Shown here piece by piece: positions 5,792 through 30,750 of a stretch of 42,748 nucleotides of DNA (the first letter of the stretch is position 1; each line of letters starts with the position of its first letter). Both the position numbers and the translations under genes were made by a program. The notes beneath the pieces were generated by a model that ran no database searches, had not been told where the DNA came from, and was given only the letters and a program-made list of their open reading frames with translations. Origin of the DNA: a virus (Duplodnaviria > Heunggongvirae > Uroviricota > Caudoviricetes); the IMG/VR virus record IMGVR_UViG_2695420651_000024. One strand, given 5' to 3'.

Positions 5792-6144
5792 TACGCCTCC
5801 GATTTAACAGTCGTTATTCCATAGAGAGTGTCGATTTCAGCGGAAAACATGACACGTCGGGTCGTGGTATCCACCGTCGTATTGAAAGAGAGGATTGATT
5901 TAACGCCCCGCGTTTCGAGGATGCGCTTACGGATCGCCAGGTTGTAGGTTTCCGGCTTCTGCTTACCGAGCACAGACTGGATCCACGGGGTCCCTTCGGT
6001 GGTGTCGAGAAACCATTGCCCATACCACAATTCAAATCGCGTTTTTACCGCCTGCGCCACGGCCTCCGGTGAGTTAATCAGCCAGGTGTCATCACCGCTG
6101 CCAAAGGTGTAATCGCCATCGGCGTCTTCACGTCTGTATCGCAT
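5791..6144 (-). CDS. Baseplate protein, GpW/gp25-like (Mu gp46-like)
   Basis: 117 aa; start overlaps the stop of the upstream gene; conserved position. Confidence 0.5.
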   Translation of the reverse strand: MRYRREDADGDYTFGSGDDTWLINSPEAVAQAVKTRFELWYGQWFLDTTEGTPWIQSVLGKQKPETYNLAIRKRILETRGVKSILSFNTTVDTTTRRVMFSAEIDTLYGITTVKSEA

Positions 6145-26407: not shown

Positions 26408-28563
26408 CAAACCTTGCATTTTTTCCCCCCAATTCGCCTTTGGGCACGCTTATACCCGCAATTTTGCAAAACATTACTAATTCGCATTTCTTCGCGTTTT
26501 CCGATGCGGTCAGGATTTAGCCCAATCGCATCACGCAAAACATCACTTGCGCGTAAAAATTCGCAATTTCGCGGAAGTTCATTAGTCATCAGGTCGGGCG
26601 TGTCGAGCCATTTCTCTACCGTTTCAAGCCAAGCATCCTTGATGGTGTACTGTTCATGGACACTCGCTGCCAGTTGTTCAGCCTCACGGAACTGGATACC
26701 CCCCAGACGCTGAAACACCTCACGAGCCTCAGCCCAAAGTAAAAGGAGATCTCTTTTTATCGCTTTCACGTCGACTTTCGACACTTCCACGGGGAGCCAG
26801 CGACGGTTACCAGTCTTGTCCGCAAGGAATTCGTCCTCATTAGTGGTACCAACGAACACCAGGCGACGAGGAAACTGGGTGGCGAACTCCCGGTATTTCG
26901 GGATCCAGTTTTCGTGAGTACGCGTCACAAACGCTTTGATTGACTCCAGCTCTTTGGTATTAAGCCCGCGCAGTTCACCAATCTCTGCCACCAGCCGACC
27001 ACGCATTTTTCGAGCGAGATCATCGTCTTTTTCGGCAAAAGAGATTTCAGTAAAAAACGCAGGATCAGGGCTCAGTGCCTCCACTCCGGAAGACTTACCG
27101 CAGCCCTGCGGACCAACGAGGATCGGCACCATATCCGCTTTGATGCCTGGCTCCAGTACTCGCCCCGCCAACGCGGTCCACATGTACATAGACACCGCAC
27201 GGGTATAAGGCGTGTCGGCGGTACCGAAGTGCGTATGGTAGAAACATTCGATGCGCGGCACGCCATCCCACTCCAGTCCGTTCAGCCAGGTGATCGCTGA
27301 ATCGAATGGTTGTTCATCGGCTGCAAGTAACACCACATCGCGAATAAGTTCACGGCCAACAGGTTTAAATCCCCGCTTTTCCATCGTGATGCGCAGGCGC
27401 GCATAATCCGCATCGGTGAATGCCCGCCATTGTCCGGATCCTGCCGGGGCAAACATGATTTCGTCGCGGAACTGGTCAAAGCGAATATCGATGTCCACAA
27501 AATCAGAGCGTACTACTGCTTTGGCTGCATTGCTGATGGTTGCCTCGATACGCCCCCATTTATCACGCTCGAAAGCAGGCAGCGGTAAAGGTTCCGCCAC
27601 TTCGATGCTGGTCAGATCTTCGAAATCGTCGTTGCGGATCCCGATGGCATTCAGGAAATCTCCGTCATCACGATGCGCGCAACTGGCATGCAGGCATTTA
27701 AAATGCCCCTGCTCAAAGCCTGCGGTTCCCGCAGGAAAATAAACTGTGCTTGTTGGATCGCCTCCGCTACTGTGGCCGTCTTCAAACGGACAGCGGATAT
27801 ATCGTTCACCGTTTGCGCCATCCAGCAGCGTCCAGCCATTGGCATCAAGATATTCAGCTGTATCATCCGTCGCGCCGGGCGTGAATGCTGAACGGTCGCG
27901 CATCTTCGTGTTGCCCGCTTCGGTGGTTACCGACACAGGGAGTTGTTCAGCCAGGCGCTGCCACAGCGTTTCAAGCTGCTCACCTGTAATAGCCGGAGGT
28001 TCATCCGGCAAACCACCGTCCCATTCAATACGCGCGCCGCTGCTGTGCGTACCACAGGCAACGAACTGCTGCCCGTTCGCCAGCAACTCGATAATGCCCA
28101 TATCCCCCGCCAGGCGATGGATACGCTTACGGAAATCACCATCAACGGCCAGCAGATACAGACACTTATTACTGTTTGCTCGCCAGCGTCGCGGCGGCGA
28201 CTCACCCAGAAGTTGCACAAGTGTTTTGCGAATATCTGCCTGAATGTCTTCATCTTCGCTATCGCAGTCCAGCGCCAGCCAGCCATGGCCTGTACGCACG
28301 CAGATGCCATAATCCGGTTCATTCGACCAGCGGGCAAAATCATGCTCAGTAACAACATGCCCGGTCCATTGAGCAATACCTGTGACCTGGCGGTCCCGGT
28401 TATAGCGACTCGGCGTCTTACCCAACGCTTTCAATTTACTATCAGGGGATATGGTCGCACTGGGGTTACATACAACTGGGAGAAGATGAGCAGTCCGCCC
28501 CAATACCAGGTCGAAATGAAACCACTCATCAGGCGTAGCTCCCCATGGTTTGCTATCGGACAT
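26377..28563 (-). CDS. Replication primase-helicase (primase-polymerase N-domain plus D5/P4-alpha-like NTPase)
   Basis: 728 aa; Walker A VGPQGCGKSS; N-terminal prim-pol-like region; first large gene after the Cro-like gene. Confidence 0.75.
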   Translation of the reverse strand: MSDSKPWGATPDEWFHFDLVLGRTAHLLPVVCNPSATISPDSKLKALGKTPSRYNRDRQVTGIAQWTGHVVTEHDFARWSNEPDYGICVRTGHGWLALDCDSEDEDIQADIRKTLVQLLGESPPRRWRANSNKCLYLLAVDGDFRKRIHRLAGDMGIIELLANGQQFVACGTHSSGARIEWDGGLPDEPPAITGEQLETLWQRLAEQLPVSVTTEAGNTKMRDRSAFTPGATDDTAEYLDANGWTLLDGANGERYIRCPFEDGHSSGGDPTSTVYFPAGTAGFEQGHFKCLHASCAHRDDGDFLNAIGIRNDDFEDLTSIEVAEPLPLPAFERDKWGRIEATISNAAKAVVRSDFVDIDIRFDQFRDEIMFAPAGSGQWRAFTDADYARLRITMEKRGFKPVGRELIRDVVLLAADEQPFDSAITWLNGLEWDGVPRIECFYHTHFGTADTPYTRAVSMYMWTALAGRVLEPGIKADMVPILVGPQGCGKSSGVEALSPDPAFFTEISFAEKDDDLARKMRGRLVAEIGELRGLNTKELESIKAFVTRTHENWIPKYREFATQFPRRLVFVGTTNEDEFLADKTGNRRWLPVEVSKVDVKAIKRDLLLLWAEAREVFQRLGGIQFREAEQLAASVHEQYTIKDAWLETVEKWLDTPDLMTNELPRNCEFLRASDVLRDAIGLNPDRIGKREEMRISNVLQNCGYKRAQRRIGGKKCKVWEPLEPRGTT

Positions 28564-28566
28564 GGG

Positions 28567-28767
28567 TTACACCTTTTGTCTAGCTGTCACTTCCTGAAAA
28601 AGTTTTTCTATCGCACGTACTGTAGAAAAGCGAGGGTCAGAATGAACCCCGGTAAGAAGCCGACTAATAGAAGACTGCTTCACGCCTGCAATTTCGGCAA
28701 TTTGGTTTTGGGTATACCCTGAATCAATCAAGCTTTTGACCATCTCTTGTGGTGTTAGTCCGGACAT
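28567..28767 (-). CDS. cro: Cro-like HTH regulator
   Basis: 66 aa; XRE-type HTH (YTQNQIAEIAGVKQSSISRLL); divergent from the CI-like repressor and heading the minus-strand operon. Confidence 0.6.
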   Translation of the reverse strand: MSGLTPQEMVKSLIDSGYTQNQIAEIAGVKQSSISRLLTGVHSDPRFSTVRAIEKLFQEVTARQKV

Positions 28768-28908
28768 ATTTAAGTCTCCACTTTCGTCTATAGCGCAAAT
28801 TTATACGAAAACGGATTACTCAGCAATACAGCAATTCTATGTCATCCTAGATTAAAATATCCGATAACGCATAATCACCGTCCCTGTATACAACATGGAT
28901 GAATCCAA
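28768..28908. promoter_or_regulatory. Divergent repressor/cro promoter-operator region
   Basis: 141-bp gap between divergent cro-like and cI-like genes; contains GATAACGCATAATC (28863..28876), a motif repeated at 29683..29719. Confidence 0.45.
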
Positions 28909-29583
28909 ATGATTGATACTACCGATATCCTTTCTCAAAACATCAAGTACCTGATGGACAAAGCCAAGATAAGCTCGATAACTGAGCTGGCACGTCGGTT
29001 ACAGCTGAACCAACCAACGCTACACAGGCTGGTATCAGGAGAGGTGAAAGATCCGAAATACGCAACGTTAAAGCAGATCGCCGACTACTTCCACGTGTCA
29101 CCAATAGACTTGGCAGAAAGGAGCCTTCAAGAAATGGAGAAAGAGGACGCGACAGGTATAAAAACGTATATTTCTCTTAGGTTTAATAAAGTACCTGTTT
29201 TGGGAAACACTCAGCTAGGCGTTGGAGGACTTTGGAGCGACACCCAATATTCAGTAGGTAGCAGTGATGGTTTCATATACTGGCCGACAAAGGATGAAGA
29301 TGCATACGCCCTGAAATGTGTTGGTGATTCAATGATGCCTAGAATCAAAGAGGGGGAGTTCGTAATCGTCGAACCCAACCACGACTACACTCCTGGTGAT
29401 GAAGTACTTGTGGTTACCCGGGAAGGTGAGGTCATGGTTAAAACCTTCTTGTTCGAACGCGATGGCCTGTTCCATCTAATGTCTGTAAATGAAGATCATC
29501 CACCAGTCAGAGTACCACGCGAAAACATTGAAAAAATCCATTACGTGGCGGGGATCGCCAAATCCGCGCTACGTATGTACTAA
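28909..29583 (+). CDS. cI: CI-like prophage repressor (HTH plus S24/LexA-type autopeptidase domain)
   Basis: 224 aa; N-terminal HTH (ITELARRLQLNQPTLHRLVSG); C-terminal LKCVGDSMMPRIKEGEFVIVEP (Ser) and a downstream Lys, as in LexA/CI. Confidence 0.8.
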   Translation: MIDTTDILSQNIKYLMDKAKISSITELARRLQLNQPTLHRLVSGEVKDPKYATLKQIADYFHVSPIDLAERSLQEMEKEDATGIKTYISLRFNKVPVLGNTQLGVGGLWSDTQYSVGSSDGFIYWPTKDEDAYALKCVGDSMMPRIKEGEFVIVEPNHDYTPGDEVLVVTREGEVMVKTFLFERDGLFHLMSVNEDHPPVRVPRENIEKIHYVAGIAKSALRMY

Positions 29584-29613
29584 CCTTTACAGTCTGATAA
29601 CTTACTTCTGATC

Positions 29614-29646
29614 AAACCGCTCTCCACAAGGGCGGTTTTCTTATTT
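29614..29646 (+). terminator. Putative intrinsic terminator after the repressor gene
   Basis: AAACCGC...GCGGTTT stem followed by TCTTATTT; the loop is long, so only moderate support. Confidence 0.4.
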
Positions 29647-29667
29647 GCAAAATAATTCATTTTCGTA

Positions 29668-29696
29668 TTGACACAAAATCCCATAACGCATATAAA
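29668..29696 (+). promoter_or_regulatory. Near-consensus sigma70 promoter (TTGACA, 17 nt, TATAAA), overlapped by operator-like repeats
   Basis: -35 TTGACA at 29668..29673, 17-nt spacer, -10 TATAAA at 29691..29696. ATAACGCATATAAA overlaps the -10; the near-palindrome CGCATAATTAATGCG lies at 29705..29719. Confidence 0.5.
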
Positions 29697-30001
29697 TACG
29701 ATATCGCATAATTAATGCGTTTTTTAATACTGGCTCTTTAACAAACTGAACCGCGTGACAGGTAAGCCGCAGTACTCCTGGCAAAACGAAATAGCACCCG
29801 ATGGGATCGAGGTAAGCGCCGAGTCCGTATGCGTACGGTAAGCGTAGAGGACAACACCGCGACAAACTGATAAGTCACGCAAGTTGAAACGCCCCGACGA
29901 TGGGGCGCTTAGTTCCTTTTGGGGTGGGGTGAAGATCAGTCCATTGAGTCAATCCGAAGTTCAGCATCTACCACTACACCACCACCAAAGAGAACTGCTA
30001 A

Positions 30002-30526
30002 TCATCTGGCAGGTTGTAACGGTGCAGGAGTTTTGCCACTGACTTCTATATTTCGGGGAAATTTATATTCAGCGGAGCATTTATGACACTTGAGAATTTT
30101 ATAAGCGGCATTAGAAGTATGGTATTGAAGTATAGACTTCATACCCGACTCATAGCATGTAGTACAAAGATAATGAGGCTTGAACTCAGGATCGTCAGTA
30201 GGCTTCAGTACATAGACCACCGTATTGGTAATCGGGTGGTACATTTCATAGTTCATTTTCTCACTATCCCAATCCTGTTTCTTTTCCAGAAGGGATTCGA
30301 GTTCAACAATGCGCTGTTTAGCTTCGTTCAAAAGCTCCGTTAGTGCGAATTGTCCAGTACGCGCATCAATTAGTTTATCAAGTAGATCGATAGTTTTACT
30401 TTTAACATTGTAATCCACCTGCAACGCATTAACTTCTTTTGCTAAATCAACAGCACCTTTCAAAGCACCACCAGCACTAGTGGCCGCCTCAGTTATACGC
30501 CGTACAAGTCCTTTTTCTTCAGACAT
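30002..30526 (-). CDS. Hypothetical protein with N-terminal coiled coil and C-terminal C4 zinc ribbon
   Basis: 174 aa; CTTC...(x20)...CHKC; GC lower than neighbours; sits in the immunity region beside cI, antisense to the strong plus-strand promoter. Confidence 0.5.
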   Translation of the reverse strand: MSEEKGLVRRITEAATSAGGALKGAVDLAKEVNALQVDYNVKSKTIDLLDKLIDARTGQFALTELLNEAKQRIVELESLLEKKQDWDSEKMNYEMYHPITNTVVYVLKPTDDPEFKPHYLCTTCYESGMKSILQYHTSNAAYKILKCHKCSAEYKFPRNIEVSGKTPAPLQPAR

Positions 30527-30665
30527 CTTAATTCTCTCTAAAACTATAGGGGTAAAGAGATATTAGCCGAATTCTCGCTGTAGGGGTACAGAGAGAGCCA
30601 TCTCGTCTGACGTGGTTAAAAGCAGGCATTCGCTGACATCCAAGTAATTGCTGTGTGTAGCCTTT

Positions 30666-30691
30666 GCCCGCCTCAAGTGACGGGCTTTTTT
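30666..30691 (+). terminator. Putative intrinsic terminator upstream of the early operon
   Basis: GCCCG-(10-nt loop)-CGGGC followed by TTTTTT. Confidence 0.4.
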
Positions 30692-30750
30692 ATGTCTGAA
30701 AGCGCACTCGCAACAGCGTGCTCCCCGATATGAAAAAAGGAATACAACCG

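What the first reader, a model, noticed from the sequence alone, without database searches (positions are those of the whole stretch)
28768..29719. Shared ATAACGCATAAT-type motifs at both promoters of the immunity region: candidate repressor operators
GATAACGCATAATC (28863..28876, in the cI/cro intergenic region), ATAACGCATATAAA (29683..29696, overlapping the -10 of the strong plus-strand promoter) and the near-palindrome ATATCGCATAATTAATGCG (29701..29719) share a CGCATA(A/T)T core. Their placement at the two divergent early promoters is what operators for the CI-like and Cro-like proteins would look like.
Basis: partly seen in the sequence, partly recalled or inferred. Interest (0 to 1): 0.4.

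Follow-up and report, generated by a model that had tools for sequence, protein, structure and literature searches.

The report
Prophage repressor operators, re-delimited
The repeated motifs are real. They are fragments of about seven 14-bp palindromic sites (ATnCn-N4-nGnAT) that sit on the promoters either side of a prophage repressor gene, which is an ordinary lambda-style genetic switch in a phage group whose operators have not been described.

Summary
All three motifs are at the stated coordinates. Their shared 10-mer ATAWCGCATA occurs 3 times in the window against 0.16 expected, so this is not chance.

The motif was drawn out of register. The real unit is a 14-bp dyad, ATnCn-N4-nGnAT. The "near-palindrome" at 29701-19 is the junction of two neighbouring sites.

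The window has five well-formed sites and two weak ones:
- In the cro/cI intergenic region: 28803-16, inside the spacer of the cro promoter; 28826-39, degenerate; 28859-72, over the -10 of the cI promoter.
- At the strong plus-strand promoter after cI: 29655-68, 29678-91, 29696-709 and the weak 29715-28.

The same sites occur at the same offsets from the promoters in about 13 diverged relatives, including Yersinia YeP4, Hamiltonella APSE, Xenorhabdus and Gilliamella. Six positions are held constant while the others change. Among close relatives, none of the 30 constant positions varies (P = 0.005).

The operator interpretation is therefore supported in substance but wrong in detail. Binding has not been shown. 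This is a new member of a known kind and of low to moderate interest.

The parts
28567..28767 (-). cro-like gene: a 66-aa HTH protein and the first gene of the leftward early operon, followed by the VapE-type primase/helicase gene at 26377-28563 and the Q gene at 25666-26088
   Evidence: ORF list. Pfam HTH_3, E=1e-9. The nearest natural solved relative by sequence is 434 Cro, a weak match at E=0.015.
28798..28826 (-). Inferred cro promoter: -35 TTGCTG (28826-28821), 17-nt spacer, -10 TAAATT (28803-28798)
   Evidence: Read from the sequence. It has the same geometry as the promoter after cI, and a TTG at the matching position is kept in the relatives. No transcription start-site data exist, so this is an inference.
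28803..28816 (.). Operator OR1, ATACGAAAACGGAT, filling the spacer of the cro promoter
   Evidence: Exact match to ATnCG-N4-CGnAT. A site at about the same distance from the cI ATG (-95 to -109) is seen in nearly all relatives. It is invariant among close relatives.
28826..28839 (.). Degenerate middle site OR2, ATACAGCAATTCTA, with only the left half intact; its first base pair is the first T of the cro -35 on the minus strand
   Evidence: Only 3 of 6 constant positions match. Xenorhabdus, Gilliamella and L043 relatives have a full site here at -81 to -94. In the window's own lineage this stretch accumulates substitutions.
28859..28872 (.).
   Evidence: Exact pattern match. A site lies at about -50 from the cI ATG in nearly all relatives, followed by an ATAAT-like -10. 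It is invariant among close relatives.
28909..29583 (+). cI-like repressor gene, 224 aa: N-terminal HTH domain plus C-terminal S24 (LexA-type) peptidase domain
   Evidence: Pfam HTH_26 (4e-12) and Peptidase_S24 (5e-18). 61% identical to the YeP4 repressor, 51% to APSE P1 and 34% to H-19B cI.
29614..29638 (+). Intrinsic terminator of cI
   Evidence: Terminator scan. Hairpin of -13.4 kcal/mol, z=-4.2.
29655..29668 (.). Operator OL0, ATTCATTTTCGTAT; its last T is the first T of the -35 hexamer
   Evidence: 1 mismatch to the strict pattern; 6 of 6 constant positions. Present at offset -13 in all 20 promoters that could be anchored.
29668..29696 (+). Strong early promoter (PL-like): TTGACA (29668-73), 17-nt spacer, TATAAA (29691-96)
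   Evidence: Sequence. TTGAC-17/18-TATAAAT is conserved in the relatives. The promoter scan missed it because the scan requires T at the last -10 position.
29678..29691 (.).
   Evidence: (offset +10/+11 in the relatives).
29696..29709 (.).
   Evidence: Exact pattern match. Offset +28/+29 in the relatives.
29715..29728 (.). Weak operator OL3, ATGCGTTTTTTAAT; the left half is good and the right half is poor
   Evidence: 5 of 6 constant positions. A site lies at offset +46 to +50 in 15 of the 20 anchored promoters.
29705..29725 (+). Weak hairpin plus T-run, formed by the right half of OL2 facing the left half of OL3. It is most likely a by-product of the operator arrangement.
   Evidence: One search lists it. 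It folds at only -4.5 kcal/mol. It is absent at this position in YeP4, Xenorhabdus and L036/37.
29733..29744 (+). boxA-type element GCTCTTTAACAA, 5 nt after the last operator. It marks the transcript from this promoter as a likely target of antitermination.
   Evidence: The only exact copy in the window. An exact copy occurs once in each of 32 of 50 fetched loci, about 150 nt after the cI stop codon in the cI-anchored loci. Its identity to the ribosomal-operon boxA consensus is from my own knowledge.

Best explanation
The motifs are parts of a set of operators for the prophage's CI-type repressor, and very probably for its Cro-type partner too. Each operator is a 14-bp inverted repeat: ATnCn, a 4-bp A/T-rich spacer, then nGnAT. 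That shape fits a dimer of helix-turn-helix domains. The operators are built into the promoters on both sides of cI. At the leftward cro promoter and at the rightward promoter after cI, one operator fills the 17-nt spacer between -35 and -10. A second shares its last T with the -35; this one is degenerate at the cro promoter. The rightward promoter has two more operators, over the start site and just downstream. A further operator covers the -10 of the cI promoter. In a lysogen, CI dimers on these sites would block RNA polymerase at both early promoters, probably helping one another bind at the 18-23-bp spacings. The site over the cI promoter would allow autoregulation by CI or shut-off by Cro. 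Loss of CI, expected through cleavage by its S24 domain, would release both operons. The rightward transcript then meets a boxA element. Shown here: the sites, their statistics, their positions relative to consensus promoter hexamers, their conservation and their selective constraint. Inferred: the start sites, which protein prefers which site, cooperativity and the induction route.
For: (1) Statistics. The exact pattern ATnCG-N4-CGnAT occurs 5 times in the window against 0.81 in shuffles (1 of 300 shuffles reaches 5), and 3 of the 5 lie in the two regulatory stretches. The looser pattern gives 2 hits in the 150-nt intergenic region against 0.09 in local shuffles.
(2) Conserved position with changed sequence. 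In all 20 promoters after cI that could be anchored, a site with at least 5 of 6 constant positions lies at offset -13 from the -35 start, 18 have one at +10 to +12, 18 at +28 to +31, and 15 at +46 to +50. In the intergenic region, sites lie near -106, -83 and -50 from the cI ATG. Positions 1, 2, 4, 11, 13 and 14 are nearly invariant, positions 3, 5, 10 and 12 vary, and the spacer is A/T-rich. An alignment anchored only on the -10 recovers AT.C......G.AT without using the pattern.
(3) Outgroup. APSE-2, whose CI is 51% identical, has the same layout.
(4) Constraint. Among close relatives, 38 of 247 columns vary, but 0 of the 30 constant operator positions do (4.6 expected, P=0.005). Spacer and variable positions change at the background rate.
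(5) Proteins. CI has HTH plus Peptidase_S24 domains and Cro has an HTH domain. Their recognition helices are alike: QPTLHRLVSG in CI and QSSISRLLTG in Cro.
(6) Erwinia chromosomal remnants keep CI and both intergenic sites but have a Q-like gene in place of cro. This points to CI as a binder.
(7) Half-site preference tracks the start of the CI recognition helix: QQS goes with ATGCR, NQP with ATACG/ATCCG, and HQP with ATACA/ATTCA. This is suggestive only.
Against: There are no binding data, no footprint and no mapped transcription start for this phage or any relative; I found none in the papers searched. The promoters are consensus readings, and the -10 of the strong promoter, TATAAA, lacks the usual final T. 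Two of the seven sites are weak. The helix/half-site correlation is confounded by phylogeny. The comparative evidence cannot separate CI binding from Cro binding, nor say whether the site over the cI promoter represses or activates.
Confidence: 0.85

Rival explanations
1. The near-palindrome at 29705-29719 plus its T-run acts at the RNA level as an early terminator or attenuator of the rightward transcript. The DNA similarity to the other motifs would then be incidental, or this role would exist alongside operator function.
For: The terminator scan lists it: 5-bp stem, 3 G-C pairs, TTTTTT tail. It folds better than most shuffles (z=-2.1). A similar hairpin exists in the close relatives L002 and L029.
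Against: It is worth only -4.5 kcal/mol, against -13.4 for the cI terminator. It would form within about the first 25 nt of the transcript. It is absent at this position in YeP4, Xenorhabdus, L036/L037 and APSE, where the two operators are still present. Its two arms are exactly the half-sites of two operators whose positions are conserved.
Confidence: 0.1
2. The repeats are replication-origin iterons bound by the replication protein. The depositors of APSE-2 annotated the homologous cro/cI intergenic region as a putative origin of replication.
For: The APSE-2 record marks that intergenic region as 'Putative origin of replication region'. The region is A/T-rich and next to the primase/helicase operon.
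Against: The sites are inverted repeats, not direct ones. They occur at two loci about 820 bp apart, on either side of cI. They are in register with -35 and -10 hexamers at both. They persist in Erwinia remnants that have lost the primase gene.
Confidence: 0.04
3. The dyads are bound by only one regulator, Cro alone or another phage or host factor, and not by CI.
For: Nothing here distinguishes the two HTH proteins directly. Across phages with different half-sites, the Cro recognition helix is more conserved than the CI helix.
Against: Erwinia remnants lack cro but keep CI and the sites. Half-site preference tracks the CI helix. Half-sites differ between phages of related hosts, which argues against a host factor.
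Confidence: 0.08
4. The similarity is chance or merely compositional: A/T-rich promoter DNA sharing -10-like words.
For: The 8-mer core CGCATAWT is not enriched (6 found, 3.8 expected).
Against: shuffle controls, including local ones; conserved positions; selective constraint.
Confidence: 0.02

Closest known systems
Bacteriophage lambda OR/OL operators with CI and Cro
   Same: A cI gene flanked by two early promoters, each overlapped by several dyad-symmetric sites. One site overlaps the cI maintenance promoter, as OR3 does. cI is transcribed in the same direction as the PL-type promoter. The repressor has HTH plus S24 domains. The lambda OR1 sequence and the three-site arrangement are cited from PMC5977221; the rest is textbook knowledge.
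   Different: The sites are 14 bp rather than 17 bp, with a different sequence. There are four sites at the PL-type promoter, one of them upstream of the -35. The middle intergenic site is degenerate in this phage. Spacings are 23/33 bp in the intergenic region and 23/18/19 bp after cI. No N gene follows the promoter. CI is not detectably similar to lambda CI in the PDB sequence search.
Bacteriophage 434 operators (14 bp, ACAA-N6-TTGT) with 434 repressor and Cro
   Same: A 14-bp site made of outer contacted bases and a central A/T-rich segment that varies. The window's Cro gives its best natural PDB sequence match to 434 Cro, and also matches 434 repressor. The 434 operator facts are from my own knowledge.
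   Different: The half-site sequence is unrelated (ATnCn against ACAA). The sequence similarity to the 434 proteins is marginal (E=0.015 and 0.26-0.7), so this is an analogy of geometry, not family membership.
Immunity module of Yersinia phage YeP4-6 and Hamiltonella phage APSE (Sendosyvirus): genes P1 cI, P2 and P3
   Same: True homologues. They share the gene order VapE-type gene, cro, cI, promoter, boxA. CI is 61% and 51% identical. Operators of the same pattern sit at the same offsets. The APSE/YeP4 kinship of this module is stated in PMC8579659.
   Different: The preferred half-sites differ (ATGCA/ATGCG in YeP4). YeP4 and APSE lack the inserted minus-strand gene and the RprA-like element downstream. 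I found no description of operators for either phage.

Membership tests
Lambdoid-type CI/Cro operator set | Divergently transcribed genes for an HTH repressor with a self-cleaving S24 domain and for a small HTH Cro-like protein | tested here: met
   the 224-aa protein has HTH_26 plus Peptidase_S24, and the 66-aa protein has HTH_3. They are divergent across a 141-bp intergenic region.
Lambdoid-type CI/Cro operator set | Several copies of one dyad-symmetric site, in excess of chance | tested here: met
   5 exact pattern matches against 0.81 expected, with 3 of them in the two regulatory stretches. Local shuffles of the intergenic region give P=0.007.
Lambdoid-type CI/Cro operator set | Sites overlap the -35/-10 elements of the early promoters on both sides of cI and of the cI promoter | tested here: inconclusive
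   This holds for consensus-predicted promoters that are conserved in relatives. No experimental start sites are available.
Lambdoid-type CI/Cro operator set | Sites kept at the equivalent promoters of related phages while the surrounding sequence diverges | tested here: met
   (about 13 lineages, including YeP4 and APSE); 0 of 30 constant positions vary, P=0.005.
Lambdoid-type CI/Cro operator set | Specific binding by the repressor and by Cro | not testable with these tools
   This needs EMSA, footprinting or ChIP. The only indirect support is that Erwinia remnants keep CI and the sites without cro.
434-type operator | 14-bp site with a variable central segment | tested here: met
   the spacer columns are A/T-rich and variable, and the outer columns are constant.
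434-type operator | ACAA...TTGT half-sites and clear homology of the proteins to 434 repressor and Cro | tested here: not met
   The half-sites are ATnCn. The PDB matches to 434 Cro and repressor are marginal (E=0.015 and 0.26-0.7), and the whole CI protein gives none.
Intrinsic terminator (for 29705-29725) | Stable G+C-rich hairpin followed by a U-run, conserved in relatives | tested here: not met
   The hairpin and U6 tail exist, but the fold is only -4.5 kcal/mol and the hairpin is missing outside the closest relatives.
Replication-origin iterons | Tandem direct repeats at a single locus tied to the replication protein | tested here: not met
   The sites are inverted repeats at two loci, in register with promoter hexamers. 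They are retained where the primase gene is lost.
boxA-type antitermination site (for 29733-44) | Match to the boxA consensus just downstream of an early promoter | tested here: met
   GCTCTTTAACAA is the only exact copy in the window and is conserved in 32 of 50 loci. The consensus itself is recalled from knowledge. No boxB hairpin and no N-like protein were identified.

The most novel reading that the evidence does not exclude
ATnCn-N4-nGnAT is a common operator scaffold for a whole, experimentally untouched clade of immunity modules: E. coli 606R2-like prophages, Yersinia YeP4, the aphid-protective Hamiltonella phage APSE, and Xenorhabdus, Gilliamella and Arsenophonus prophages. On this reading, immunity specificity is set only by half-site positions 3 and 5 together with the first residues of the CI recognition helix. 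Two site subclasses (OR1/OL0/OL2-like and OR3/OL1-like) would divide the work between CI and Cro. Heteroimmunity and switch wiring could then be predicted from sequence across the clade.
Probability: 0.3. Interest if true: 0.45.

Novelty: new member of a known kind. Interest (0 to 1): 0.3.

Why it matters
This result gives precise, testable operator and promoter coordinates for a prophage carried by about 150 of 5,426 complete E. coli genomes, including ETEC H10407, IAI1 and O103:H2 12009. The same site pattern applies to the immunity region of its relatives, among them phage APSE, where the homologous region is currently annotated as a putative origin. It does not reveal a new mechanism. It is a clean example of a lambda/434-style switch, useful for annotation, for predicting superinfection immunity and for designing reporter or induction experiments.

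Tried and rejected
- **Known RNA families.** Rfam at gathering thresholds found nothing in the window or in six relatives apart from one tRNA, so the region after the promoter is not a described RNA family.
CGCATAWT is not enriched. Only the longer shared word is.
- **A fourth copy.** ATAGCGCAAAT at 28790 (family D3) is not kept in L029 or L030, so it is probably chance.
- **A trans-antisense RNA reading**, in which the plus-strand transcript pairs with the cro leader. I rejected it because the inferred cro transcript starts near 28791 and runs leftward, so it does not contain 28859-76.
- **A host-factor site such as LexA.** The pattern does not fit the LexA box I recall, and the half-sites differ between phages.
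- **The promoter scan** missed the strong promoter because of its rule for the last -10 base, so it could not serve as a test.
- **Folding of the window's leader** (29703-29930) gives no excess stability (z=+0.45).
- **PDB sequence search with CI** gave nothing at E<=0.01 and only marginal hits to the HTH domain.
- **Two other exact pattern matches**, at 5921 and 23299, have G+C-rich spacers, unlike the A/T-rich spacers of the operator sites, and lie far from the immunity region. They are consistent with the 0.8 expected by chance. I did not check whether they fall in coding sequence.

Full report
**What is in the sequence.** They share the 10-mer ATAWCGCATA, which occurs three times in the 42.7-kb window and nowhere else, against 0.16 expected from dinucleotide-preserving shuffles (0 of 100 shuffles reach 3). 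The repeat finder found them independently as an 18-nt family at 28856, 29675 and 29693. The "CGCATA(A/T)T core" as written fits only two of the three copies and is not enriched as an 8-mer.

**The setting.**
- 28567-28767 (minus strand) encodes a 66-aa HTH protein. It is the first gene of an operon that continues with a VapE-type primase/helicase gene and a Q antiterminator gene.
- 28909-29583 (plus strand) encodes a 224-aa protein with an HTH domain and an S24 (LexA-type) peptidase domain.
- cI ends in a good terminator at 29614-38 (-13.4 kcal/mol).
- Next comes a near-consensus promoter: TTGACA at 29668-73, a 17-nt spacer, then TATAAA at 29691-96. The scan tool missed it only because it demands T at the last -10 position.
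- Five bases after the last operator lies GCTCTTTAACAA (29733-44). This is the only exact copy in the window, and from my own knowledge it is identical to the boxA core of ribosomal RNA operons.
- The window is a prophage, 100% identical over this region to prophages of ETEC H10407, O103:H2 12009 and others. Related copies (95-100% identical) occur in 147 of 5,426 complete E. coli genomes. It is 98% identical to the induced phage vB_EcoM-606R2.

**Relatives show the real unit.**
- I collected the homologous region from Yersinia phage YeP4 (CI 61% identical), from 14 genome loci and from 34 viral contigs. Later I added Hamiltonella phage APSE-2 (CI 51% identical).
- Read side by side, the intergenic region and the promoter after cI contain a recurring 14-bp inverted repeat: ATnCn, a 4-bp spacer, nGnAT. 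Examples are ATACGAAAACGTAT and ATACGGTTTCGTAT in isolated copies.
- In the window the sites are:
  - 28803-16, ATACGAAAACGGAT
  - 28826-39, ATACAGCAATTCTA (degenerate, only the left half intact)
  - 28859-72, ATCCGATAACGCAT
  - 29655-68, ATTCATTTTCGTAT
  - 29678-91, ATCCCATAACGCAT
  - 29696-709, ATACGATATCGCAT
  - 29715-28, ATGCGTTTTTTAAT (weak)
  
It comprises the spacer, the right half-site (CGCAT) and flanking bases. At 28868-75 and 29687-96 those flanking bases are the start of a -10 hexamer (CATAAT, TATAAA).
- The "near-palindrome" at 29701-19 is the right half of one operator facing the left half of the next.
- The sites at 28859 and 29678 match at 13 of 14 positions and at 16 of the 18 nt of the repeat family around them. 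That near-identity is why a long shared word was visible by eye.

**Is it more than chance?**
- The strict pattern ATnCG-N4-CGnAT occurs 5 times in the window against 0.81 in shuffles (1 of 300 shuffles reaches 5). Three of the five fall in the roughly 230 bp of regulatory DNA.
- In local shuffles of the 150-nt intergenic region, the looser six-position pattern is expected 0.09 times and occurs twice (P=0.007). The same test is significant in nearly every relative.

**Conservation.**
- Twenty promoters after cI could be anchored on the -35 hexamer. All 20 have a site with at least 5 of 6 constant positions at offset -13, where its last T is the first T of the -35. Eighteen have one at +10 to +12, filling the spacer. 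Eighteen have one at +28 to +31, running from the last base of the -10 across the start site. Fifteen have one at +46 to +50.
- In the intergenic region, sites lie near -106 and -50 from the cI ATG. Many lineages also have one near -83.
- Across distinct sequences, positions 1, 2, 4, 11, 13 and 14 are nearly invariant. Positions 3, 5, 10 and 12 change, and the spacer stays A/T-rich.
- An alignment anchored only on the -10, made without using the pattern, recovers AT.C......G.AT as conserved columns.
- APSE-2, the most distant named relative, shows the same arrangement followed by the same boxA.
- Within the window's own lineage, 38 of 247 regulatory columns vary. None of the 30 constant operator positions does (4.6 expected, P=0.005), while spacer and variable positions change at the background rate.
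The sites are conserved at the equivalent promoters of related phages.

**How it most likely works.**
- On the minus strand, the cro promoter reads TTGCTG, a 17-nt spacer, then TAAATT. The operator 28803-16 fills the spacer and supplies the first T of the -10. The degenerate site 28826-39 supplies the first T of the -35.
- This is the same construction as at the promoter after cI. A repressor dimer on these sites should exclude RNA polymerase from both early promoters.
- The site at 28859-72 overlaps CATAAT (28870-75). An ATAAT-like hexamer follows the equivalent site in most relatives. This site therefore looks like the counterpart of lambda OR3 over the maintenance promoter.
- The recognition helices of CI (QPTLHRLVSG) and Cro (QSSISRLLTG) are alike, so both proteins probably read the same sites, as in lambda and 434.
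- Erwinia chromosomes carry a remnant that keeps CI and both intergenic sites but has a Q-like gene where cro should be. This argues that CI itself binds the sites.
- Half-site preference tracks the first residues of the CI helix, but relatedness confounds this and I treat it only as a hint.
- The start sites, the order of site occupancy, cooperativity and RecA-dependent induction are all inferred.

**Rivals.**
- *Early attenuator.* The hairpin 29705-19 with its T-run could act as an early attenuator. It is worth only -4.5 kcal/mol and disappears in relatives that keep both operators. I read it as a by-product of two facing half-sites.
- *Origin iterons.* The APSE depositors marked the homologous intergenic region as a putative origin. 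Inverted repeats at two loci, in register with promoter hexamers and retained where the primase gene is lost, do not look like iterons.
- *Chance.* This is excluded by the shuffle and conservation tests.

**Comparison with known systems.**
- The layout is that of the lambda switch: cI between two early promoters, multiple dyads, and one dyad over the cI promoter.
- The site geometry (14 bp, outer contacts, variable A/T centre) is that of phage 434, whose Cro is the nearest natural PDB match to this Cro, though only weakly (E=0.015). The half-site sequence is unrelated to either phage, so these are working analogies.
- True homologues are the immunity modules of YeP4 and APSE (PMC8579659). I found no description of operators for them in the papers searched.
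- Differences from lambda are four sites at the PL-type promoter, including one upstream of the -35; a decayed middle site in the intergenic region; and a boxA with no N gene between the promoter and the first terminator.

**Verdict.** This is an ordinary and well-behaved repressor-operator system in an uncharacterised phage lineage. It is a new member of a known kind, and I score interest at 0.3.

Noticed in passing
window 30582-30695 (+), best part 30646-30691: An RprA-like small RNA gene on the prophage. It gives a full-length but sub-threshold Rfam match to RprA (45.5 bits against a gathering score of 70, E=7e-4). Over 46 nt its 3' part, including the terminator, is 82.6% identical to chromosomal rprA in essentially all E. 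coli genomes. 149 genomes carry the phage version. The term 'RprA-like' did not occur in any paper in the library. It could mimic or compete with host RprA.
   Followed up: partly
window 29733-29744 (+): An exact rRNA-operon-type boxA (GCTCTTTAACAA) lies just after the operators. An exact copy occurs once in each of 32 of 50 fetched loci, about 150 nt after the cI stop codon in the cI-anchored loci. No N-like gene lies between the promoter and the next terminator-like hairpin (about 29891-29925), so antitermination may rely on host factors or on a factor encoded elsewhere.
   Followed up: partly
L012-L016, L043, L050, L051 (APSE-2): about 150 nt after boxA, e.g. L013 3305-3470: In the Xenorhabdus, APSE and related phages, the leader after boxA is a strongly conserved structured RNA. 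RNAalifold gives 35 pairs, 10 of them with compensatory changes. No Rfam family matches. It is a candidate cis-acting leader or antitermination RNA. The window's own leader (29745-29925) is a different sequence and shows no excess folding stability.
   Followed up: partly
window 30002-30630: A minus-strand 174-aa coiled-coil ORF with a Cys-rich C-terminus and no Pfam family, together with its upstream 30544-30630, looks like an inserted accessory-gene cassette. The upstream stretch is about 82% identical to DNA beside sieB in lambda, P22 and VT1-Sakai. The cassette sits between the PL leader and the plus-strand early operon, and YeP4 lacks it.
   Followed up: partly
L003-L009, L031-L034 (Erwinia, Kalamiella): These are chromosomal loci next to a 4Fe-4S ferredoxin-like gene and an acpS-like gene. 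They keep a CI homologue (about 64% identical), both intergenic operators and a divergent Q-like gene, but have no cro, no primase gene and no PL region. This is a conserved prophage remnant, possibly a domesticated CI-Q pair.
   Followed up: partly
L051 1040-1140 (APSE-2, LR794152.1): The cro/cI intergenic region of APSE-2 is annotated in GenBank as 'Putative origin of replication region'. It contains operator-pattern dyads (ATACCAATTCGCAT, ATGCGTAAAAGTAT), so the annotation probably needs revising.
   Followed up: yes
window 29668-29696: The -10 of the conserved strong promoter is TATAAA(T) in nearly all relatives and lacks the usual T at the last position. That is why the consensus promoter scan did not report it.
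   Followed up: no
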